DNA of 64,000 bases from the IMG/VR virus record IMGVR_UViG_3300031998_000008, positions 128,001 through 192,000 of that record. One strand, 5' to 3'. Both the position numbers and the translations under genes were made by a program. The notes under the pieces were generated by a model. It saw only the letters and a list, made by a program, of their open reading frames with translations, did not search any database and was not told the DNA's origin. Shown in pieces: positions 39,076 through 55,335 of this stretch (position 1 is the stretch's first letter; each line of letters starts with the position of its first letter). Origin of the DNA: a virus (taxonomy: Duplodnaviria; Caudoviricetes).

Positions 39076-39146
39076 GGTTCATTGGGCCATCGGTTGGCCA
39101 GGCGTCTCTAAAACGCTAAAGAAGGGTTCGACTCCCTTATGAGCCG
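39076..39146 (+). tRNA. Amber suppressor tRNA (anticodon CTA)
   Basis: Cloverleaf GGTTCAT/ATGAGCC; anticodon arm GGCGT-CTCTAAA-ACGCT; T loop TTCGACT. Confidence 0.85.
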
Positions 39147-39176
39147 CTACCAATAAGATTAAACAAATACTATGAA

Positions 39177-45034: not shown

Positions 45035-45162
45035 GCTGGAATCGTCTAATGGATTAGGACACGTAGCAAACAAAATGATTTCAGTCGGAAATGAAATTTA
45101 ACAGCAGAATTTAGCAATGAAATTCCAATTCCGAAATGGGGGTTCGAATCCCTCTTCCAGCT
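45035..45162 (+). tRNA. tRNA(TCC, Gly anticodon) with ACAGCA mini-intron 45064-45118
   Basis: Spliced arm CGGAA-ATTCCAA-TTCCG. Confidence 0.75.
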
Positions 45163-45164
45163 CT

Positions 45165-45290
45165 TGCAAGTTGGTGTAGTGGCAGCACACGTAGCGACTA
45201 ATTAGATTTCAGACATGGAATTAGACAGCAATATTTAAAATGCGATGAAACCATAATTCCGTGACAGAGGTTCGATTCCTCTACTTGCAA
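45165..45290 (+). tRNA. tRNA(CAT) with ACAGCA mini-intron 45192-45246
   Basis: Spliced arm ACGGAA-ACCATAA-TTCCGT. Confidence 0.75.
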
Positions 45291-45302
45291 CTATTTAAGA
45301 TT

Positions 45303-45424
45303 TGGGATGTGGTGTAACGGTAGCACACGTAGCACTTTATGATTTCAGACACGGAATTTTACAGCAATTATTTTAGCGATGAATTTGGGTTTCCGTGGTT
45401 TTGGTTCGACTCCAGACGTCCCGA
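45303..45424 (+). tRNA. tRNA-Pro(TGG) with ACAGCA mini-intron 45330-45380
   Basis: Spliced arm ACGGAA-TTTGGGT-TTCCGT; Pro-type acceptor. Confidence 0.8.
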
Positions 45425-46045: not shown

Positions 46046-46615
46046 ATGAAAAAGAATTTTAGAACAAAAGAAGAATATATTGAGGCTGCAAAGATGGCTC
46101 ATAGTGTTGCTGAAATGTGCAGATTACTTGGTAGAAATCCATGTGGCGCTGGATATTATATTATGAAAAAGAAAATCAAAGAATATGATATAGATATAAG
46201 TCATTTTCTTGGGCAAGGATGGAATAAGGGTTTAAAGATGAACCCTAATGAGGGAAAAATTAAAAAATTAGAAGAAATATTAGTAGAAAATTCCACATAT
46301 GCTAATTGTAATTGTTTAAAAAAAAGGTTATTAAAAGAAGGTGTTAAAGAATATAGGTGTGAGTGTTGTGGGTTGACTGAGTGGAACGGTAAAGAAATTC
46401 CTTTAGAAATACATCACATAAATGGTGTTAGAAATGATAACAGGATTGAAAATCTTCAATTATTATGCCCAAATTGCCATGCTCAAACAGATAATTATTG
46501 TTCTAAAAATATGAAGAATGGCGGAGTGGTGGAATTGGTAGACACGACTGTCCCAAAAGCAGTTGCCGAGAGGCGTGTGGGTCCGACTCCCACCTCCGCT
46601 ACAGAACTTAAATAA
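46046..46615 (+). CDS. HNH endonuclease (tRNA-array associated)
   Basis: CECCG..LEIHHING..DNRIENLQLLCPNCH. Confidence 0.88.
   Translation: MKKNFRTKEEYIEAAKMAHSVAEMCRLLGRNPCGAGYYIMKKKIKEYDIDISHFLGQGWNKGLKMNPNEGKIKKLEEILVENSTYANCNCLKKRLLKEGVKEYRCECCGLTEWNGKEIPLEIHHINGVRNDNRIENLQLLCPNCHAQTDNYCSKNMKNGGVVELVDTTVPKAVAERRVGPTPTSATELK
46520..46601 (+). tRNA. tRNA-Leu(CAA), overlapped by the HNH ORF 3' end
   Basis: ACTGT-CCCAAAA-GCAGT, variable arm. Confidence 0.85.
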
Positions 46616-46633: not shown

Positions 46634-47269
46634 ATGAAGAAAGTATTTATTTTATTGATGGCAATTTCTTTGATGTTTTCATTCAATTCTTGCGATTGGT
46701 TTAACAAGAACAAGGATAATGAGAAAAAAGAAATTATCGTGGAAAACGTAGTTAAAGCAGACAGAGACTACATGACAGAAAATTATGGTAATACCTACGT
46801 ATGGTATGAAACACAAATTTCTTTGAATGACTATCTTGATGAAGAATGCGATGGCTCATTCTCAGAGATTGTAGATGTGTTCCAAGTTATCACTACAACT
46901 GACAGTGTAACATTTGATACCAAAGTAATTAAGATGTACCATGTTGCTGATTCTTCATACATTGAAGAAATTGAAGGTTTCTGGGTTGAAGACATGAATA
47001 TGAACGATGAAATCATTTCAGTCACTTACAAACAAGCATTCCAACTTATTAATGAAGTAAACTTCCCAAAACCACATTCAAAGAATTGTGTTTTGAGAAA
47101 AGAAGTTGGCCCAATTGAAGCTAATCCTCAGTATATCTTTGGCAACATTGAATCACAATTGTATGTTGATGCATTGACAGGTGATGTAACTGATGAAAGC
47201 CCAAGTTTCTGTGACGAAGTTATTGAAAACGACAGCATCGAAGATGTAAACACTCAATTTGGTGAGTAG
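46634..47269 (+). CDS. Putative lipoprotein
   Basis: Signal peptide ending FNSC; C-terminal YVDALTGDV (PepSY-like). Confidence 0.6.
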   Translation: MKKVFILLMAISLMFSFNSCDWFNKNKDNEKKEIIVENVVKADRDYMTENYGNTYVWYETQISLNDYLDEECDGSFSEIVDVFQVITTTDSVTFDTKVIKMYHVADSSYIEEIEGFWVEDMNMNDEIISVTYKQAFQLINEVNFPKPHSKNCVLRKEVGPIEANPQYIFGNIESQLYVDALTGDVTDESPSFCDEVIENDSIEDVNTQFGE

Positions 47270-47300: not shown

Positions 47301-47369
47301 AGAAAACCTAACAGCAACTTTTAGTAATAATCAGGACTTTCATTCCCGACAATAAACTAATGGTTTTCG
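47301..47369 (+). ncRNA. Split ACAGCA element enclosing an isolated anticodon stem-loop TTC (Glu)
   Basis: GAAAACC-TAACAGCAA...TCAGGA-CTTTCAT-TCCCGA...GGTTTTC-G. Confidence 0.7.
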
Positions 47370-47387: not shown

Positions 47388-47459
47388 AGTAATCCTACAG
47401 CAACATTTCAACAAAACCTTTGATTGCAATTCAAAACCATGTTAACAAACGGATTACTG
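47388..47459 (+). ncRNA. Split ACAGCA element enclosing an isolated anticodon stem-loop GCA (Cys)
   Basis: AGTAATCC-TACAGCAA...TTTGA-TTGCAAT-TCAAA...GGATTACT-G. Confidence 0.7.
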
Positions 47460-48121: not shown

Positions 48122-48213
48122 AGGAAACTTGCAGCAAATTTAATTAGGTTCAATAAATTTAACTTCCAATTAGATTTTAGATGGTTCGAGTCCATTACAA
48201 ACAAGGTTTCCTG
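48122..48213 (+). ncRNA. Split element enclosing an anticodon arm TCC (Gly) + T arm
   Basis: AGGAAACT-TGCAGCAA...ATTTAA-CTTCCAA-TTAGAT..GATGG-TTCGAGT-CCATT...GGTTTCCT-G. Confidence 0.7.
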
Positions 48214-48297: not shown

Positions 48298-48441
48298 AGT
48301 AAGCTTGCAGCAATAATTCAGTTTATTTTCGCAGATACCGAAGAGATGTCGGTTCGATTCCGGCCCCCCATACAAATTTAACTTTCTTATCATATGGGGG
48401 TAGTTTAATGGTAGAATATTACAAACAACAAAGGCTTACTG
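48298..48441 (+). tRNA. Circularly permuted tRNA (GAT, Ile anticodon) inside a split element
   Basis: 3' half (48326-48372) precedes 5' half (48394-48417); acceptor ATGGGGG/CCCCCAT. Confidence 0.72.
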
Positions 48442-48456
48442 TCAATACAAAGCAAA

Positions 48457-48550
48457 AGAAATCTTACAGCAAATATCAACTTGATTAGTTCGATTCTAAT
48501 ATTAGCCGCCATAAACAGGCTGATTGCAAAGGTGCAGTTAATGATTTCTG
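48457..48550 (+). ncRNA. Split element enclosing a permuted tRNA body lacking an anticodon arm
   Basis: T arm + ATTAGCC-GCCA, then GGCTGAT + D-like hairpin; flanks AGAAATC-TTACAGCAA / GATTTCT-G. Confidence 0.65.
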
Positions 48551-48564
48551 AATGCTTTTTTTAT

Positions 48565-48638
48565 AGGGGTATGGTTGAATTGGTTACAAGTACCGGCCTG
48601 TCACGCCGGTGGTGCGGGTTCGAGTCCCGTTATCCCTG
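48565..48638 (+). tRNA. tRNA-Asp(GTC)
   Basis: CCGGC-CTGTCAC-GCCGG. Confidence 0.9.
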
Positions 48639-48648
48639 CAATAGATAA

Positions 48649-48779
48649 AGGAATTCAACAGCAACTTTTAATTTCGTTTGACTGTAAATCAAAAGGTTAT
48701 TGGTTCGAATCCAGTTGTTGCATTAGAGAAATCGAAGGCGACATAGCTCAATTGGTAGAGTAAGAAAAAGTGATTCCTG
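48649..48779 (+). tRNA. Circularly permuted tRNA-Tyr(GTA) inside a split element
   Basis: TTTGA-CTGTAAA-TCAAA..T arm..TGTTGC, then GGCGACA-TAGCTCAATTGGTAGAG. Confidence 0.78.
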
Positions 48780-48795
48780 TGCATCTATTTTTTAT

Positions 48796-48869
48796 GGGCC
48801 TGTGGTTGAATGGTTTACAATGCCGCCCTGTCACGGCGTGTGGTGCGGGTTCGAATCCCGTCAGGCCCG
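48796..48869 (+). tRNA. tRNA-Asp(GTC)
   Basis: CCGCC-CTGTCAC-GGCGT. Confidence 0.88.
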
Positions 48870-48880
48870 CATAGATTGAA

Positions 48881-49036
48881 AGAAATTTAACAGCAAGAGA
48901 CTTTATGGTAAACACATTTCTCTGCAAAAGAAAGATTGTTGGTTCGAGTCCAACTGTAGCATTGAAGACGGAGCCCTCATTTAGCGAGGTGCGAGTTTTT
49001 GGCTGCATAGTGAAATTGGAAAAAGAATGATTTCTG
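48881..49036 (+). tRNA. Circularly permuted tRNA-Cys(GCA) inside a split element (break in D loop)
   Basis: TGGTAAACAC-A-TTTCT-CTGCAAA-AGAAA..T arm..TGTAGC, then GGCTGCA-TAGTGAAATTGG. Confidence 0.78.
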
Positions 49037-49163: not shown

Positions 49164-49236
49164 GGGGAGTTCATTTAGCGGTTTAGGATGCAGGTTCGAC
49201 AGACCTGTCACTATGGTTCGATTCCATAACACCCCA
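49164..49236 (+). tRNA. tRNA-Val(GAC), atypical loop
   Basis: CAGGT-TCGACAG-ACCTG. Confidence 0.7.
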
Positions 49237-49240
49237 CAAT

Positions 49241-49592
49241 CGGATGTTGTTGATATTCAAAGAAAAGTCCGTAAGACGAGGGTTCGACTCCCTCCGGGTC
49301 CACCATATTGGGTGCGCCATGTTGAGTACCAACCATACTAGTTATACGGTTCTTATGATTCATGGTACAATACCAAGTAATTTGAAAAACTTGGTTCGGG
49401 TTTAAAATTGGGGTTCAACTCCCTGGCATCCAACAACTTTCAAACATGGGCCCGCTTGGATTTGATTGCGAATGAATACAATGGAAGGAGATATTCGAGA
49501 AGCCAATAAATGGCAATGAAAATTATGCATATGCAGTTGCAGCCTAAGCTAGGTTAGCAAATGCAGGTTGGCAGCGAACCAAATCGCTGCAA
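49241..49592 (+). ncRNA. ssrA: Permuted two-piece tmRNA: acceptor piece ~49241-49305, coding piece 49448-~49592, tag GNENYAYAVAA*
   Basis: GGGCCCG/CGGGTCC-ACCA with G3.U70; T arm GAGGG-TTCGACT-CCCTC; P2 pairing between the pieces; ATAAAT|GGC resume site, tag 49512-49547. Confidence 0.88.
49308..49433 (+). ncRNA. tRNA-like RNA occupying the tmRNA intervening segment
   Basis: TTGGGTGC/GCATCCAA, ACCAAGT/ACTTGGT arm, GGGG-TTCAACT-CCCT. Confidence 0.5.
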
Positions 49593-49594
49593 AT

Positions 49595-49667
49595 GGCGGG
49601 TTCGTATAATAGGTTAGTACGCCACCCTCTCAAGGTGGAAATAGAGGTTCGAACCCACTACTCGCTA
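49595..49667 (+). tRNA. tRNA-Glu(CTC)
   Basis: CCACC-CTCTCAA-GGTGG. Confidence 0.85.
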
Positions 49668-50171: not shown

Positions 50172-50537
50172 CAAAACATATTCAGGTATAGAAGACGCAA
50201 ATTCTAAGAGACTGCTCTGTGTTTTGGACGATATATGTGTACCAAACCAATGTTCAAGTTGCGTATTGAACTGAGGGCATGTATAATCGAAAAAAAGTGT
50301 CTATGGTGTAAGTGGTGAGCACACCCAATGGAGGGAGGTACGGTTCGAGTCCGTGGATTACTTCAATTTTTTTCTTATTATTTAAAAGGATGAAGTTGGT
50401 AGCGCCACAACGTAATGTAACAAGTCCCTGAAATGGTCATTTCAAACTGTGTTCCTTATCGTAGTTAAGGGAAAGTCTTTTACGGTTTCTATAATGCGAA
50501 AGCCAAAATGTATCAAAGGAAGCAAACCGTTTTATTT

Positions 50538-50664
50538 GGAGGTATAGTTTAGTGGTAGAATGACGTAAAATGAAAATAGCATTTTGGTCATTTAAAAATG
50601 TTAACAGCATATGAGTTCAATGCCTTTCCCGCCGTTGATGTAGGTTCGATTCCTGCTGCCTCCG
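50538..50664 (+). tRNA. tRNA(TTC) with ACAGCA mini-intron 50566-50621
   Basis: Spliced arm GACGGC-CTTTCCC-GCCGTT. Confidence 0.72.
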
Positions 50665-50818: not shown

Positions 50819-50950
50819 TGGCCAGTAGCTCAGTTGGCAGAGCAACGGAATGAAAAGAAAACGCATTTTGGCCTAAAGATGTTAACAGCAATGAAAAATT
50901 TTCGACTGTTAATCCGTGGGCCGCAGGTTCGAGTCCTGCCTGACCAGCCA
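50819..50950 (+). tRNA. tRNA-Asn(GTT) with ACAGCA mini-intron ~50848-50903
   Basis: Spliced arm ACGGA-CTGTTAA-TCCGT, identical to the intact Asn gene at 48219; encoded CCA. Confidence 0.85.
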
Positions 50951-51060: not shown

Positions 51061-51136
51061 GCATGTATGAAGCAGATTGGATGTGCTACCAGCGTGATAA
51101 GGCTGGGCTATGTTGGTTCGAATCCAACTGCATGCG
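51061..51136 (+). ncRNA. tRNA-Ile-like gene with 8-nt anticodon loop
   Basis: CCAGC-GTGATAAG-GCTGG. Confidence 0.55.
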
Positions 51137-51177
51137 CAAATTACCTGAACACATAGGGTGATTTATCTGTACAGATT

Positions 51178-51331
51178 GGGTGTGTAGACTGAATGGGAAA
51201 ATTGGTATCAAAAGTACATTCGGATATGACTGAAATGCAGATAGGTCATATTGACGGGATGCAACTTGAGAAGATTTGAAGATGCGCCCGGTAAGCTCCG
51301 GGAGATACGGGTTCGAATCCCGTCACACTTA
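51178..51331 (+). ncRNA. Expanded tRNA-like RNA
   Basis: GGGTGTG/CACACTT, CCCGG-TAAGCT-CCGGG, ACGGG-TTCGAAT-CCCGT. Confidence 0.5.
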
Positions 51332-51336
51332 CAATA

Positions 51337-51404
51337 GGAAAACATACAGCAACTTTAATTCAGTTACAATCTTTTAAATTGTGGGACTAAAATTTCGTTT
51401 TCCG
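51337..51404 (+). ncRNA. Split ACAGCA element enclosing an isolated anticodon stem-loop TTT (Lys)
   Basis: GGAAAAC-ATACAGCAA...ACAAT-CTTTTAA-ATTGT...GTTTTCC-G. Confidence 0.72.
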
Positions 51405-53274: not shown

Positions 53275-55335
53275 TTATTCTATTGTGTTAAGTATCCGAG
53301 CAAGTTCACATGAATACATTCCCGTTGCTTCAGGAAACATATATTCGCCAAATTCTTCACAAAGTTCTTCCTCGTTTATTTCTCCATCATTATAATCGTG
53401 TATAAATTCTTCTATTTCTCCATTATCTTCATCGAAATAGTCAATCAGATAATCAACTAATCCATGGGCTATCTCATGGCCTATAGAAATCCTCGCCTGA
53501 GCCTTTATATTGAAATCATCGGTATCTATACCATTTTTAACCATTAATGCGTGTATGAGCCCCAAATTGACCCCTATTGGGATAATTTTCTCACCTATTA
53601 AGTTTCTTGAACGCTCGTAAACGGCAAGCCAATTTTTATCACCAAAATTATAATTGTAATCAAGTTCAACCGAAATACCCAATCTTCTCAAAAATTCATT
53701 CTCCAAATCATTAACACACTCATAGGCATGTTCCATGAATTTACGTTTCCAAATGTCAAATGAATTAACTGATTCGTTCAATTCTTCTTTACCTTCAAGT
53801 CTATCTGCCAAAGTTTGTATGCTGACACAATTTTTGTCTTGAAGTGTAAAGTGGCTTCTTTCTATATAGAAATAAATCGGCACTCTTTGGGCAAATTCAC
53901 TCTTTGATATTTTCAATAATGCCTTTTTGTCTGCATCAAATTGTTTGAAACCCATCATCAAAGAATCATAATCAGGATAGTATATATCAACACGGTTCAA
54001 ATAAGCGCTGACGTGAGTAAGGTTATCTCTATATGGTAGTTGTAATCCTTCTTCTGCTTGGTTTTGGTATTCATGTCTTTGAAGTGAACCAAGATTAAGT
54101 TCTTTTGGTAGCCCCAACTTAACAGGTGCTAAACCCATTCTTCTTTGCTTTTCGTAATAATATTCTTTGTCTTGGTATCTTGACTTGCTTGATTCGTTAC
54201 CAGGAATTTGTCTGTTGAATGCGGCATCGTATCTATCTCTCTTTGGAGAATAGTATTCCATTGGCTTAACATTCAATACATCGTGATTTGAATTGAGTTT
54301 ATCTGTGTTAAATTCAAGCCTTACAAATGGATGCATTCTATAATATGATGCATTGGCAAATCCCTCAAAGTCACTTCTATGTCTTGTCAATGATATGTGT
54401 GAATTACCATCCCAATATTTAGTGTTATAAAATGCCGAATACAGTTCATCAGATTCAGCAATAAGACTAAATCTGTATAAGGTTGTGAAATGATACAAAG
54501 ATTTCATGTTTGTGTGCTCGTTCAATGTACACTCTTCCAAATCATTTATGTTTCCTAAAAATTTTTCAAACCTCTTTCCATGGATGTCTTTTATGCTTCC
54601 ATAAGTGTTATTTAGGAATTCAAGCATATCTTTTAGTTTTACACAATGCTTGTCCTGCAAAGCAAAATTCCTTGCATTGGTGTAAACAAATATAGGCACG
54701 TAATTTGCAAATACGCTATCACCTATTTCTTGATATTCGGATAATAAGTTATTCCATCCATCGTAATCTTTAAGTACTTCGTTAAATTCTTTAAACAAAA
54801 TATCTATTCTGTCAATATACTTGTGTATATTTTTTAACTTTGGCCTGTATTTATCATTCTTAATTTGCAACCCTTCTTCAGCCTGATTGTGAAACTCAAT
54901 CCTGTCGCCATTTTCTTCCCTATAAAACGGGTTCTGATAATGGGCCTTTGACGTTGTGTAATGAGAAAACATATAAGCGCCATGTCTTTTTGGAGAATAA
55001 AACTCCATTGGCTTTATGTTCAAAACATCATGCTTTGAATTTAATTTTTCTATGTTAAATTGTATCCTTACATTGTTGTTTCTTTCGTTGGCAAAAGCAA
55101 ACCCCTCAAAATTGCTTTTATGCCTTGTCAATGATATGTGGCTATTGTTATCCCAATAATCCTTCAGGTAGTTTGCACCCAACAATTCATCAGTGTTAAC
55201 AATTTCACGTAAACTGTATATTGACGTGAAATGATACAAAGATTTCATGTTAGTGTGCTCATCAATTATATTCTTAACACACTCGCTTACTATCTTTTCA
55301 ATGTCTTCTATTGTGTATTCAATCAATTTTTCCAT
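53275..55335 (-). CDS. Tandem ADP-ribosyltransferase-like domains + HExxH domain
   Basis: Two copies of EHTNMKSLYHFT..SHISLTRH..QAEE; C-terminal IGHEIAH. Confidence 0.55.
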   Translation of the reverse strand: MEKLIEYTIEDIEKIVSECVKNIIDEHTNMKSLYHFTSIYSLREIVNTDELLGANYLKDYWDNNSHISLTRHKSNFEGFAFANERNNNVRIQFNIEKLNSKHDVLNIKPMEFYSPKRHGAYMFSHYTTSKAHYQNPFYREENGDRIEFHNQAEEGLQIKNDKYRPKLKNIHKYIDRIDILFKEFNEVLKDYDGWNNLLSEYQEIGDSVFANYVPIFVYTNARNFALQDKHCVKLKDMLEFLNNTYGSIKDIHGKRFEKFLGNINDLEECTLNEHTNMKSLYHFTTLYRFSLIAESDELYSAFYNTKYWDGNSHISLTRHRSDFEGFANASYYRMHPFVRLEFNTDKLNSNHDVLNVKPMEYYSPKRDRYDAAFNRQIPGNESSKSRYQDKEYYYEKQRRMGLAPVKLGLPKELNLGSLQRHEYQNQAEEGLQLPYRDNLTHVSAYLNRVDIYYPDYDSLMMGFKQFDADKKALLKISKSEFAQRVPIYFYIERSHFTLQDKNCVSIQTLADRLEGKEELNESVNSFDIWKRKFMEHAYECVNDLENEFLRRLGISVELDYNYNFGDKNWLAVYERSRNLIGEKIIPIGVNLGLIHALMVKNGIDTDDFNIKAQARISIGHEIAHGLVDYLIDYFDEDNGEIEEFIHDYNDGEINEEELCEEFGEYMFPEATGMYSCELARILNTIE

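What the first reader, a model, noticed from the sequence alone, without database searches (positions are those of the whole stretch)
48298..49036. Circularly permuted tRNA genes (GAT, GTA, GCA) in a bacteriophage
Seen: at 48298-48441, 48649-48779 and 48881-49036 the anticodon arm, T arm and acceptor 3' strand come first. After a 14-39 nt spacer the acceptor 5' strand and D arm follow. Acceptor strands are complementary (ATGGGGG/CCCCCAT; GCGACA/TGTTGC; GCTGCA/TGTAGC). Breakpoints differ (D/anticodon junction twice, D loop once), but each gene is bracketed by the split ACAGCA element. Established: permuted tRNAs in red algae and archaea mature through a circular intermediate that RNase P and tRNase Z then open. 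Inference: the same route operates here with a different splicing signal. Standard tRNA finders would miss these genes.
Basis: partly seen in the sequence, partly recalled or inferred. Interest (0 to 1): 0.9.

Follow-up and report, generated by a model that had tools for sequence, protein, structure and literature searches.

The report
Permuted tRNA look-alikes on RNA handle
Three small RNA genes in a giant rumen phage really are tRNAs written back to front, but they are most likely not spare tRNAs waiting to be spliced: they belong to a widespread, unpublished family of phage RNAs that hang tRNA look-alikes on a constant "handle" that travels with a Ro60-like ring protein.

Summary
Observation confirmed. 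At 48299-48439, 48649-48778 and 48881-49035 the order is anticodon arm, T arm, acceptor 3' strand, spacer (22, 14, 39 nt), acceptor 5' strand, D arm. Each is clamped by a 6-8 bp helix followed by (A/G)CAGCAA. ARAGORN calls tRNA-Ile/Tyr/Cys on the re-ordered halves and never on 900 shuffles.

At least 64 distinct elements in IMG/VR phage contigs share this design, with 52 different helix sequences, all paired. Related phages keep the helix, anticodon stem and acceptor pairing through compensatory changes.

The proposed circle-and-splice maturation is not supported. The handle co-occurs with, and lies beside, a DUF2828+vWA gene (14/14 complete element-bearing records) whose model folds like Ro60. 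No tRNA-splicing endonuclease was found (0/48) and RtcB is rare (2/48). The same array carries the handle on cargo that cannot become a tRNA. "Anticodons" switch between orthologues. All 8 anticodons duplicate ordinary tRNAs of this phage.

Best reading (about 0.55): Y-RNA-like tRNA mimics, comparable to YrlA. True spliced tRNAs remain possible (about 0.18). No Ro60-like gene lies in the 41% of this genome that is held.

This scan noted the same handle family earlier on other DNA. I re-tested those leads here. I found no paper describing it.

The parts
48299..48439 (+). E2: whole handle-clamped permuted tRNA-like gene (anticodon GAT, A33)
   Evidence: Sequence. The MFE fold gives an outer helix closing four hairpins. 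ARAGORN calls a tRNA on the doubled sequence, 0/300 on shuffles.
48299..48313 (+). E2 handle 5' strand GTAAGCTT (48299-48306) plus motif GCAGCAA (48307-48313)
   Evidence: Pairs with 48432-48439.
48327..48372 (+). E2 tRNA 3' half: anticodon arm 48327-48343, variable 48344-48347, T arm 48348-48364, acceptor 3' strand 48365-48371, discriminator A 48372
   Evidence: Cloverleaf parse.
48373..48393 (+). E2 spacer closing the acceptor helix (22 nt counting the discriminator)
48394..48418 (+). E2 tRNA 5' half: acceptor 5' strand ATGGGGG, TA, D arm GTTT-AATGGTA-GAAT, A26
   Evidence: The same D arm occurs in the insert-bearing gene at 50538.
48432..48439 (+). E2 handle 3' strand AGGCTTAC, followed by TGTC
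48649..48778 (+). E4: whole handle-clamped permuted tRNA-like gene (loop CTGTAAA, anticodon GTA, short variable arm)
   Evidence: The orthologue in L103 has a compensatory change in the handle.
48649..48664 (+). E4 handle 5' strand AGGAAT (48649-48654), TCA, motif ACAGCAA (48658-48664)
48675..48723 (+). E4 tRNA 3' part: CG (probably positions 25-26), anticodon arm 48677-48693, T arm 48699-48715, acceptor 3' strand 48716-48722
48723..48736 (+). E4 spacer (14 nt)
48737..48762 (+). E4 tRNA 5' part: GGCGACA, TA, GCTC-AATTGGTA-GAG(TA)
48773..48778 (+). E4 handle 3' strand ATTCCT, followed by GTG
48881..49035 (+). E5: whole handle-clamped permuted tRNA-like gene (loop CTGCAAA, anticodon GCA)
   Evidence: (269 of 291 junction combinations called Cys-GCA). 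Orthologue in L034.
48881..48896 (+). E5 handle 5' strand AGAAAT (48881-48886), TTA, motif ACAGCAA (48890-48896)
48904..48962 (+). E5 tRNA 3' part: D-arm 3' portion (T)ATGGTAA-ACAC-A, anticodon arm 48917-48933, T arm 48938-48954, acceptor 3' strand 48955-48961
48962..49000 (+). E5 spacer (39 nt). It is replaced by a 14-nt spacer in relative L034.
   Evidence: Contigs in runs X20 and X21 also differ here.
49001..49019 (+). E5 tRNA 5' part: GGCTGCA, TA, GTG(A AATTGG)
49030..49035 (+). E5 handle 3' strand ATTTCT, followed by GTA
48457..48549 (+). E3: same handle (AGAAATC/GATTTCT, ACAGCAA 48466-48472). Cargo is T arm, 7-bp acceptor-like hairpin ATTAGCC/GGCTGAT and a D-like hairpin, with no anticodon arm. 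It lies inside the finding's span and has the most YrlA-like layout.
48122..48212 (+). E0: same handle (AGGAAACTT/AAGGTTTCCT, GCAGCAA 48131-48137). Cargo is one hairpin plus a T arm only. Its L103 orthologue carries a Tyr-type anticodon stem-loop.
51337..51403 (+). Mini-module: handle GGAAAAC/GTTTTCC, ACAGCAA 51346-51352. Cargo is only an anticodon-type stem-loop ACAAT-CTTTTAA-ATTGT (Lys loop).
   Evidence: The G010 orthologue has ACAAA-CTGTTAA-TTTGT (Asn loop) with a compensatory stem change.
47388..47458 (+). Mini-module: handle AGTAATCC/GGATTACT, ACAGCAA 47397-47403. Cargo includes TTGA-TTGCAAT-TCAA (Cys-like loop).
47302..47368 (+). Mini-module: handle AGAAAAC/GGTTTTC, ACAGCAA 47311-47317, short non-tRNA cargo.
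50538..50664 (+). Unpermuted tRNA-like gene (TTC) with the closed module (hairpin + TAACAGCA) inserted after ACG of the anticodon stem (insert about 50566-50621).
   Evidence: Rfam tRNA 43.7 bits with an insert. Parse.
50819..50947 (+). Unpermuted tRNA-like gene (GTT, encoded CCA) with the closed module inserted in the anticodon stem/loop (about 50848-50903).
   Evidence: Rfam 49.3 bits. Parse. Homologues in G038 and G010 carry GTA loops instead.
45035..45417 (+). Three adjacent module-bearing tRNA-like genes (TCC about 45035-45162, CAT about 45165-45288, TGG about 45303-45417). The helix before ACAGCA pairs with the anticodon-stem 3' strand.

Best explanation
E2, E4 and E5 are genes for stable small RNAs of a widespread, so far undescribed phage family. 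Each RNA has a constant handle. The handle is a 6-10 bp helix joining the RNA's 5' and 3' ends, with single-stranded (A/G)CAGCAA right after the 5' strand and G/UGU after the 3' strand. The handle clamps a variable cargo.

In these three genes the cargo is a complete tRNA body. Because the RNA ends sit in the D/anticodon region and the acceptor helix is closed by a spacer loop, the gene reads as a circularly permuted tRNA.

Inferred mechanism:
- The RNAs are cut out of the array transcript by processing of the flanking ordinary tRNAs.
- The handle is kept in the mature RNA and is the docking site of a Ro60-like ring protein (DUF2828 + vWA).
- The tRNA-shaped cargo acts as a tRNA mimic, as in the Y RNA YrlA. 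The spacer may be opened by RNase P and given CCA, as shown for M. smegmatis YrlA.

What the mimic does is open. It could be a decoy or bait for tRNA- or anticodon-directed enzymes, or an adaptor for a host nuclease.

Shown here: the anatomy, conservation and covariation, the gene linkage to DUF2828, and the Ro60-like fold of that protein. Inferred: protein binding to the handle, retention of the handle in the mature RNA, and the absence of splicing.
For: 1. Same architecture elsewhere. 64 distinct elements in IMG/VR contigs show it, with 52 different helix sequences, all fully paired.

2. Compensatory changes in orthologues. The E4 handle is AGGAAT/ATTCCT here and AGAAAT/ATTTCT in L103. E5 shows the reverse change in L034. 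The E5 anticodon stem changes TTTCT/AGAAA to TTTGT/ACAAA.

3. Linkage to DUF2828 (PF11443).
- It is present in 35/48 element-bearing records and in 14/14 of those at least 90% complete.
- In a control set of records that matched only the loose DNA pattern it is present in 5/26, and in 0/9 complete ones.
- In 9 of the 12 fetched DUF2828 loci, modules lie directly beside the gene or in its leader on the same strand. Some of these carry permuted tRNA cargo.

4. Ro60-like fold. The AlphaFold model of a DUF2828 protein (pLDDT 75.6) matches Ro60/TROVE structures over its full length: 9kop, 9l5y (Thermus phage Ro60), 2nvo, 1yvr, 1yvp, with E 1e-8 to 1e-5.

5. Cargo continuum in this same array. There are anticodon-stem-loop-only modules (51337-51403, 47388-47458), a hairpin + T arm module (E0), and a T arm + acceptor hairpin + D-like hairpin module without an anticodon arm (E3). 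None of these can give a tRNA.

6. Anticodon switching between close orthologues.
- The ASL-only module has a Lys loop here and in G038 and an Asn loop in G010, with stem covariation.
- The CTCTGTG family has TGA, GCA and GAA on one scaffold, with a 2-nt acceptor loop.
- Homologues of the gene at 50819 carry Asn versus Tyr loops.

7. Mismatched body. E4 and L103 put a Tyr anticodon on a short-variable-arm body. The phage's ordinary tRNA-Tyr is 85 nt, long enough for a long variable arm.

8. Redundancy. All 8 parsed anticodons of module-bearing genes duplicate ordinary tRNAs of this genome.

9. Closed acceptors. Some families have spacers of only 1-3 nt, so the acceptor is a closed hairpin.

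10. Precedents in the literature.
- YrlA has the order T arm, closed acceptor stem-loop, D arm inside a terminal helix. It is encoded beside Ro60, also in phages. In M. smegmatis it is cut by RNase P and gets CCA while staying bound (PMC4201824).
- A weak YrlA hit covers the E4 T-acceptor-D segment (23 bits).
- Dictyostelium Class I RNAs keep a terminal stem plus an 11-nt motif in the mature RNA. The conserved positions of that motif fit NNTNNCNNCAA (PMC7919456).
Against: - No DUF2828 or TROVE gene was found in this genome (148 kb held, 41% complete), nor in its relatives G010 (29% complete) and G038 (82% complete).
- Two complete control records carry a permuted element without DUF2828 (L013/G070 and L039/G073).
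- Handle-protein binding has not been shown.
- The Ro60-binding motif of known Y RNAs (GNCGAA) is absent.
- Unlike YrlA, E2, E4 and E5 keep a full anticodon arm, so a retained handle implies an unusual five-way junction.
- Removing the module rebuilds near-perfect cloverleaves in many phages.
- Some elements keep features that matter for charging. Tyr anticodons sit with a long variable arm, A73 and encoded CCA in L081, L091 and L114. An Asp anticodon sits with G73 and CCA in L089. N-CCA is present in 6/55 spacers against about 1 expected by chance.
- An RNA-ligase domain (PF09414) occurs in 11/14 complete element-bearing records and lies next to DUF2828 in G002.
Confidence: 0.55

Rival explanations
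1. True permuted (and interrupted) tRNA genes. The helix + ACAGCAA element is a new kind of splicing signal. Leader and trailer (or the closed insert) are cut away and the D-arm end is ligated to the anticodon-arm start, through a circle in the permuted genes. RNase P and 3' processing then open the spacer and CCA is added. The product is a working tRNA-Ile, -Tyr or -Cys.
For: - In-silico removal of the module gives canonical cloverleaves with a 7-nt loop, U33 and R37. My scoring rewards U33 and R37, so those counts are biased.
- Both topologies occur: split around a permuted tRNA and closed inside a normal tRNA. This is the pattern seen for BHB introns and permuted tRNA genes in Cyanidioschyzon (from memory).
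- Some elements are coherent for charging: Tyr anticodon with a long variable arm, A73 and CCA; Asp anticodon with G73 and CCA.
- Spacers such as ACCA-TTATATG look like tRNA 3' end + intergenic spacer + tRNA 5' end. That fits an origin by tandem duplication.
- An RNA ligase domain occurs in 21/48 records.
- Junctions recur after ACG or C of the anticodon stem.
Against: - No endonuclease candidate: EndA 0/48, RtcB 2/48, and two complete records (G004, G009) have neither RtcB nor PF09414.
- There is no BHB.
- Linker lengths between the motif and the exon vary from 3 to 18 nt, and from 6 to 15 nt on the other side, so no ruler from the conserved element is evident.
- The same handle carries cargo that cannot be a tRNA.
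- Anticodons switch on constant scaffolds.
- An 8-nt loop occurs in L010, A33 in E2 and in L034's E5, and a Tyr anticodon sits on a short-variable-arm body.
- All 8 anticodons are redundant with ordinary tRNAs of the genome.
- Encoded CCA occurs in 11% of spacers, against 60% of ordinary tRNA genes in the same loci.
Confidence: 0.18
2. Handle-tethered tRNAs as part of an RNA repair or tRNA-supply platform. The RNAs stay bound to the Ro60-like protein. They are opened by RNase P, given CCA and perhaps charged. They then serve as substrates, templates or spare parts for phage RNA ligases that counter host anticodon nucleases. This is a hybrid of the two readings above.
For: [quoted passage not shown]
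- Bacterial rsr-yrlA lies in the RtcB repair operon, and TROVE proteins in jumbo phages have been called an RNA repair platform with a tRNA-like partner (PMC7824862).
- PF09414 ligase lies next to DUF2828 in G002 and within about 2.4 kb in G022.
- 7-bp acceptor helices with long spacers occur in E2, E4 and E5.
Against: The ligase linkage is loose and such ligases are common in large phages. There is no evidence of charging. Modules carrying only an anticodon stem-loop do not fit a charged-tRNA role.
Confidence: 0.12
3. Decaying debris. These are rearranged tRNA pseudogenes produced by recombination between copies of a small mobile insertion element, with no function of their own.
For: - Element content differs between close relatives. 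E2 and E3 are absent in L103, and E4 and E2 in L034.
- A DNA-run contig replaces the E2 cargo.
- E4 has a G1.A72 mismatch that its L103 orthologue lacks.
Against: Compensatory substitutions maintain the handle helix, the anticodon stem, the T stem and acceptor pairing between orthologues. The architecture recurs in very different phages with 52 helix variants. It is linked to a specific protein gene.
Confidence: 0.06

Closest known systems
YrlA-type Y RNAs with Ro60/Rsr in bacteria and phages (Rfam RF02553; Chen et al. 2014, PMC4201824; Thermus phage phiLo Ro60 with Yrl1/2, PMC12135203)
   Same: A terminal helix joins the 5' and 3' ends. The internal tRNA-like domain runs T arm, acceptor-like stem closed by a loop, then D arm. 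The genes are often next to tRNAs, and in relatives they lie beside a Ro60-fold protein gene on the same strand. A 7-bp acceptor makes RNase P opening and CCA addition plausible.
   Different: The handle motif is ACAGCAA, not GNCGAA/CGAA. The partner is DUF2828, which the TROVE Pfam model does not detect (0/47). The cargo here keeps a complete anticodon arm with a real anticodon loop. The family also has closed-hairpin versions inserted inside normal tRNA genes and versions carrying only an anticodon stem-loop. The Rfam score is 23 bits against a gathering threshold of 69. No partner gene was found in this genome fragment.
Circularly permuted tRNA genes of Cyanidioschyzon merolae, other algae and some archaea (Soma et al. 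2007; Chan et al. 2011; recalled from memory)
   Same: The 3' half is encoded upstream of the 5' half. Leader and trailer pair with each other. The same element also occurs as an insert in unpermuted tRNA genes. An origin by tandem duplication is plausible.
   Different: Those precursors form a bulge-helix-bulge cut by the tRNA-splicing endonuclease and are ligated into a circle. Here there is no BHB and no endonuclease gene. The conserved element is a long helix plus a single-stranded heptamer linked to an RNA-binding ring protein. No circular or ligated form has been seen.
Class I RNAs of dictyostelid amoebae (PMC7919456)
   Same: A short stem joins the 5' and 3' ends. A conserved 11-nt motif follows the 5' strand directly, and its invariant positions (T3, C6, C9, A10, A11) fit the phage consensus N-N-T-A-A-C-A-G-C-A-A. 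The tail is UGU-like. The interior is variable. The handle is retained in the abundant mature RNA.
   Different: Class I RNAs are eukaryotic, 42-65 nt, have no tRNA cargo and were reported as unique to Dictyostelia. I tested neither homology nor a shared protein partner.
Two-piece (permuted) tmRNA (Rfam RF04321)
   Same: It is a permuted tRNA-like RNA whose acceptor region is opened by processing and which needs no ligation. One is encoded 200 nt downstream in this same array (49243-49547).
   Different: It is a different RNA family with an mRNA-like tag reading frame and has no handle motif.
Enigmatic tRNA introns of Lak megaphages (PMC6784885)
   Same: These are phage tRNA genes interrupted by short non-group-I inserts, identical across cohorts, with insert-free alleles.
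   Different: ACAGCA does not occur in the file holding their intron table (Table S6). They may therefore be a different element.

Membership tests
Permuted tRNA genes matured through a BHB and a circular intermediate (C. merolae / archaeal type) | The 3' half (anticodon/T arm/acceptor 3' strand) is encoded upstream of the 5' half | tested here: met
   with the shuffle control.
Permuted tRNA genes matured through a BHB and a circular intermediate (C. merolae / archaeal type) | Leader and trailer form a bulge-helix-bulge (3-4-3) at the splice sites | tested here: not met
   They form a 6-10 bp helix followed by single-stranded ACAGCAA and A/U-rich linkers of variable length.
Permuted tRNA genes matured through a BHB and a circular intermediate (C. 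merolae / archaeal type) | A tRNA-splicing endonuclease (EndA/Sen) and an RtcB-type ligase are available | tested here: not met
   PF01974 in 0/48 and PF01139 in 2/48 element-bearing phage records. Host enzymes could not be tested.
Permuted tRNA genes matured through a BHB and a circular intermediate (C. merolae / archaeal type) | A circular intermediate and a ligated mature junction exist | not testable with these tools
   Only assembled contigs of RNA runs could be laid. These cannot show absence.
YrlA (Rfam RF02553) | A tRNA-like domain in the order T arm, closed acceptor stem-loop, D arm, inside a terminal helix | tested here: met
   Weak YrlA alignment over 48695-48761.
YrlA (Rfam RF02553) | A GNCGAAN0-1G motif near the 5' end (Ro60 contact) | tested here: not met
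   The leaders read GTAAGCTTGCAGCAA, AGGAATTCAACAGCAA and AGAAATTTAACAGCAA. Motif definition from PMC4201824.
YrlA (Rfam RF02553) | Encoded within about 4 kb of a TROVE/Ro60 gene on the same strand | tested here: not met
   No TROVE or DUF2828 gene lies in the 148 kb held. Other members of this RNA family do lie beside a Ro60-fold DUF2828 gene.
YrlA (Rfam RF02553) | Reaches the Rfam gathering score (69 bits) | tested here: not met
   23.1 bits, E = 0.19.
Helix + ACAGCAA handle RNAs linked to DUF2828 (undescribed; noted earlier in this scan) | A terminal 6-10 bp helix with (A/G)CAGCAA 0-3 nt after its 5' strand and G/TGT after its 3' strand | tested here: met
   E2, E4 and E5. Covariation across 52 helix variants and in orthologues.
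Helix + ACAGCAA handle RNAs linked to DUF2828 (undescribed; noted earlier in this scan) | Co-occurrence with a DUF2828 + vWA (Ro60-fold) gene in the same genome | tested here: inconclusive
   14/14 complete element-bearing records have the gene. It was not found in this 41%-complete genome or in relatives G010 and G038.
Ordinary elongator tRNA (Rfam RF00005) | A contiguous cloverleaf with open acceptor ends | tested here: not met
   ARAGORN makes no call. Rfam gives only partial matches of 31.6 and 28.6 bits that use a false acceptor.

The most novel reading that the evidence does not exclude
Phages carry a BHB-independent tRNA splicing and assembly system. The helix + ACAGCAA element, held by a Ro60-like ring protein, brings the ends of permuted or interrupted tRNA genes together for cutting and ligation. 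E2, E4 and E5 would then become working tRNAs through a circular intermediate. This would be the first tRNA circular-permutation pathway outside eukaryotes and archaea, and a new enzymatic role for the Ro60 fold.
Probability: 0.15. Interest if true: 0.95.

Novelty: new variant of a known kind. Interest (0 to 1): 0.78.

Why it matters
If the best reading holds, large phages of gut and other habitats carry a second, unrecognised branch of the Ro60/Y-RNA system. It has a different handle and a partner protein family of unknown function (DUF2828). Its cargo ranges from a bare anticodon stem-loop to a whole tRNA. That would give DUF2828 a testable role. It would explain many "odd" or "intron-bearing" phage tRNA calls and unannotated gaps in phage tRNA arrays. 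It would also suggest that phages display interchangeable anticodon-loop mimics, which could bear on the arms race with tRNA-cleaving defence systems. The motif shared with Dictyostelium Class I RNAs could link two unexplained RNA classes. If the rival holds instead, it would be a new tRNA splicing pathway. Either way, tRNA finders and Rfam currently miss these genes.

Tried and rejected
- RNA evidence. Six rumen metatranscriptome runs hold parts of the array, but only as assembled contigs.
  - Among the joints shown, none joins a D-arm end to an anticodon-arm start, and none removes the inserts at 50566-50621 or 50848-50903.
  - Contigs of RNA runs cover 50400-50657 and the E5 region in gene order.
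  - Contigs cannot show absence, ends or strand, and DNA may be present in these libraries. This neither supports nor refutes splicing.
  - The joints at 48957->49005 (RNA runs) and 48326->48443 (a DNA run) are strain differences, not processing.
- Codon-usage argument. GGA and ATA looked uncovered by ordinary phage tRNAs, which would have favoured functional insert-bearing Gly-TCC and CAT genes. Whole-genome ARAGORN then found ordinary Gly-TCC, two more CAT and Val-TAC genes outside the window. The argument was dropped.
- Anticodon complementarity test in 7 other complete genomes. About 5 of the anticodons were duplicates and 8 were new, but only the array regions were fetched, so the result is inconclusive.
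- U33/R37 deviation. It affects 3/8 module-bearing genes against 6/40 ordinary tRNAs, which is not significant (p = 0.16). Several ordinary tRNAs here also have C33.
- Candidate partner proteins in the window.
  - The 686-aa (53275-55335) and 320-aa ORFs and others have no Pfam, PHROG or PDB match.
  - Atlas look-alikes of the 686-aa and 211-aa ORFs are not Ro60-like.
  - A profile of phage DUF2828 proteins finds nothing in the genome under code 11 or with TAG or TGA read through.
- Similar DNA in GenBank phages. Only ordinary tRNA matches were found.
- Lak megaphage "enigmatic introns". ACAGCA does not occur in the file holding their Table S6.
- Literature. Searches for permuted tRNA in phages, phage tRNA introns, DUF2828 and phage Ro60/Y RNA found no description of this element.
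Full report
**Setting**

The window is part of a 148-kb IMG/VR virus record, estimated 41% complete. It comes from a low-GC (about 33%) giant phage found in cattle, sheep and goat gut metagenomes. Between 39.0 and 53.1 kb the + strand carries a tRNA array. It holds 34 ARAGORN tRNAs, including a CTA suppressor, and a permuted two-piece tmRNA at 49243-49547. Six more ordinary tRNAs lie elsewhere in the genome.

At 48299-48439 (E2), 48649-48778 (E4) and 48881-49035 (E5) the gene order is: anticodon arm, variable region, T arm, acceptor 3' strand, spacer, acceptor 5' strand, U8-N9, D arm.
- The acceptor strands pair 7/7 (E2) and 6/7 (E4 and E5, each with a G1.A72 mismatch).
- The T loops are TTCGATT, TTCGAAT and TTCGAGT.
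- The anticodon loops of E4 (CTGTAAA) and E5 (CTGCAAA) are identical to those of the phage's ordinary tRNA-Tyr and tRNA-Cys.
- E2 has CAGATAC, with A at position 33.

ARAGORN sees nothing in the native order. It calls a tRNA across the junction when each element is doubled. It makes no call on 900 shuffles or on 9 other array spacers treated alike.

Each element is clamped by a helix whose 5' strand is followed by GCAGCAA or ACAGCAA.

**The clamp is a conserved module, not a peculiarity of three genes**

In the window the motif with its helix occurs 14 times, only in the array and only on the + strand.

It comes in two topologies.
- Open: helix 5' strand, motif, cargo, helix 3' strand. These are E0, E2, E3, E4, E5 and three mini-modules.
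- Closed: a hairpin followed by TAACAGCA, sitting as a roughly 56-nt insert in otherwise normal tRNA genes (50538-50664, 50819-50947, and others near 42.85 and 45.0-45.4 kb).

After filtering, 64 distinct elements show the same permuted layout. Their helices have 52 different sequences and are always fully paired, 6-10 bp. The outer end has the consensus (T/A)AGRA...TYCT(A/T), the linker is most often TA, and a G follows the 3' strand.

In the two relatives that share synteny with this array, the handle helix, the anticodon stem and the T stem change by compensatory substitutions, and acceptor pairing is kept.

**What the module travels with**

Earlier notes of this scan, made on other genomes, pointed to a DUF2828 protein shaped like Ro60. 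I tested this myself.
- The TROVE Pfam model finds nothing in 47 element-bearing records.
- DUF2828 (PF11443) is found in 35 of 48 records and in all 14 that are at least 90% complete.
- Among 26 records that matched only the loose DNA pattern it is found in 5, and in none of 9 complete ones.
- Two of those complete controls do carry a permuted element on inspection, so the link is strong but not absolute.
- In 9 of the 12 fetched DUF2828 loci, modules lie immediately up- or downstream of the gene, or in its leader, on the same strand. Some of them carry permuted tRNA cargo.
- An AlphaFold model built on eight of these proteins (pLDDT 75.6) matches Ro60/TROVE structures over the whole length. 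The matches include the Thermus phage Ro60, Deinococcus Rsr and Xenopus Ro, with E 1e-8 to 1e-5. The vWA domain is recovered as well.

By contrast:
- The archaeal/eukaryal tRNA-splicing endonuclease is absent from all 48 records.
- RtcB is present in 2.
- An Rnl2-type RNA-ligase domain is present in 21 records (11 of 14 complete). It is adjacent to DUF2828 in one genome.

**Does the cargo become a tRNA?**

Several observations argue against it as the general rule.
1. The same handle, in this same array, carries cargo that cannot be a tRNA.
   - A bare anticodon-type stem-loop with the Lys loop CTTTTAA (51337-51403).
   - A bare stem-loop with a Cys-like loop (47388-47458).
   - A hairpin plus T arm (E0).
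   - A T arm plus 7-bp acceptor hairpin plus D-like hairpin without an anticodon arm (E3, which lies inside the finding's span).
2. Orthologues swap anticodons.
   - The bare stem-loop is a Lys loop here and in G038 and an Asn loop in G010, with a compensatory stem change.
   - One family with a 2-nt acceptor loop carries TGA, GCA or GAA on a constant scaffold.
   - The homologues of the insert-bearing Asn-like gene carry Tyr loops.
3. E4 and its orthologue put a Tyr anticodon on a short-variable-arm body. The phage's ordinary tRNA-Tyr is 85 nt, long enough for a long variable arm.
4. All eight anticodons that I could parse from module-bearing genes duplicate ordinary tRNAs of this genome.
5. 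Linkers between the conserved element and the tRNA parts vary from 3 to 18 nt, and the break position varies from the D stem to the anticodon loop. No fixed ruler or BHB-like local structure defines cut sites.
6. Only 11% of spacers encode N-CCA, against 60% of ordinary tRNA genes in the same loci.

**In favour of real tRNAs**

- Removing the module rebuilds very good cloverleaves.
- Some elements are coherent for charging: Tyr anticodon with a long variable arm, A73 and CCA; Asp anticodon with G73 and CCA.
- N-CCA is still enriched over chance (6 of 55 against about 1 expected).
- The closed inserts sit in genes with normal ends.

These facts are equally expected if the cargo was captured from real tRNA genes and is kept tRNA-shaped. 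Spacers such as ACCA-TTATATG look like a junction between tandem tRNA genes, which fits such an origin.

**How it most likely works**

The published Y RNA YrlA gives the closest working model. It has a terminal helix bound by Ro60 and an internal tRNA-like domain in the order T arm, closed acceptor stem-loop, D arm. It is encoded beside Ro60 in bacteria and phages. In M. smegmatis it is opened by RNase P and given CCA while it stays in the particle.

E2, E4 and E5 fit that scheme with a different handle and with an extra, complete anticodon arm. I therefore read them as handle-tethered tRNA mimics. What is shown and what is inferred is set out under the best explanation. The function of the mimic is unknown. 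Possible roles are decoys for anticodon- or tRNA-directed enzymes, or adaptors to a host nuclease. The interchangeable anticodon loops hint at the former.

**Main weaknesses**

- No Ro60-like gene lies in the held 41% of this genome, nor in relatives G010 and G038.
- There is no direct RNA evidence. Only assembled contigs of RNA runs could be examined, and they show gene-order copies and no junctions, which proves little.

**Known or new**

I found no paper on this handle, on DUF2828 as an RNA-binding protein, or on permuted tRNA-like genes in phages. Phage Ro60 with CGAA-type Y RNAs and tRNA-like YrlA are known (PMC4201824, PMC12135203, PMC7824862).

The invariant positions of the Dictyostelium Class I RNA motif fit the phage motif. 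The letter sequence CCUUACAGCAA is from my memory.

I class the finding as a new variant of a known kind (a Ro60/Y-RNA-type tRNA mimic). There is a 15-18% chance that it is instead a categorically new tRNA splicing route. This scan has flagged the same family on many other genomes. The present window adds three complete permuted tRNAs, the full cargo series in one array, and orthologue comparisons.

Noticed in passing
window 49243-49547 (ARAGORN 49213-49638): Permuted (two-piece) tmRNA gene in the phage tRNA array. Rfam tmRNA_permuted scores 63.4 bits. The tag peptide is GNENYAYAVAA.
   Followed up: no
window 39076-39147: tRNA with anticodon CTA (ARAGORN labels it 'Pyl'), a candidate amber suppressor. 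The phage may read TAG as sense in some genes.
   Followed up: no
window 46046-46615 and 46634-47269: An HNH endonuclease gene (Pfam HNH_3/HNH) and a 211-aa phage-only protein of unknown family sit inside the tRNA array.
   Followed up: partly
window 43740 (Arg-ACG), 46520 (Leu-CAA), 49164 (Val-GAC), 51491 (Leu-AAG) and others: Six of 40 ordinary phage tRNAs depart from U33/R37, several with C33. This is unusual for decoding tRNAs and reminiscent of anticodon-loop variants proposed to evade tRNA-targeting defences.
   Followed up: partly
window 51061-51137 and 51272-51331: Two tRNA-like stretches that ARAGORN does not call. Rfam gives weak tRNA/tRNA-Sec hits of about 21 bits. The first is conserved in relative G038 (83% identity).
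   Followed up: no
window 48326->48443 and 45424->45616: Strain variants in public runs. A DNA-run contig replaces or lacks the tRNA cargo of E2. Contigs of two RNA runs lack 191 bp after the third module-bearing gene.
   Followed up: no
G002:C1:100766-102681 (locus L132); G022:C1:82267-86009: An RNA-ligase-domain gene (PF09414) lies directly upstream of the DUF2828 Ro60-like gene in one 354-kb phage and about 2.4 kb downstream of it in another.
   Followed up: partly
L013 (G070, 332 kb, 99% complete) and L039 (G073, 59 kb, complete): Complete viral records that carry a permuted tRNA-like element after AACAGCAA but have no DUF2828 hit. They are exceptions to the RNA-protein linkage.
   Followed up: partly
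window 53275-55335 (- strand): A 686-aa ORF flanks the array with no Pfam, PHROG or PDB match. Its nearest Atlas clusters by language-model features are polyvalent ART/LPD-type proteins (scores 0.78-0.89, a lead only).
   Followed up: partly
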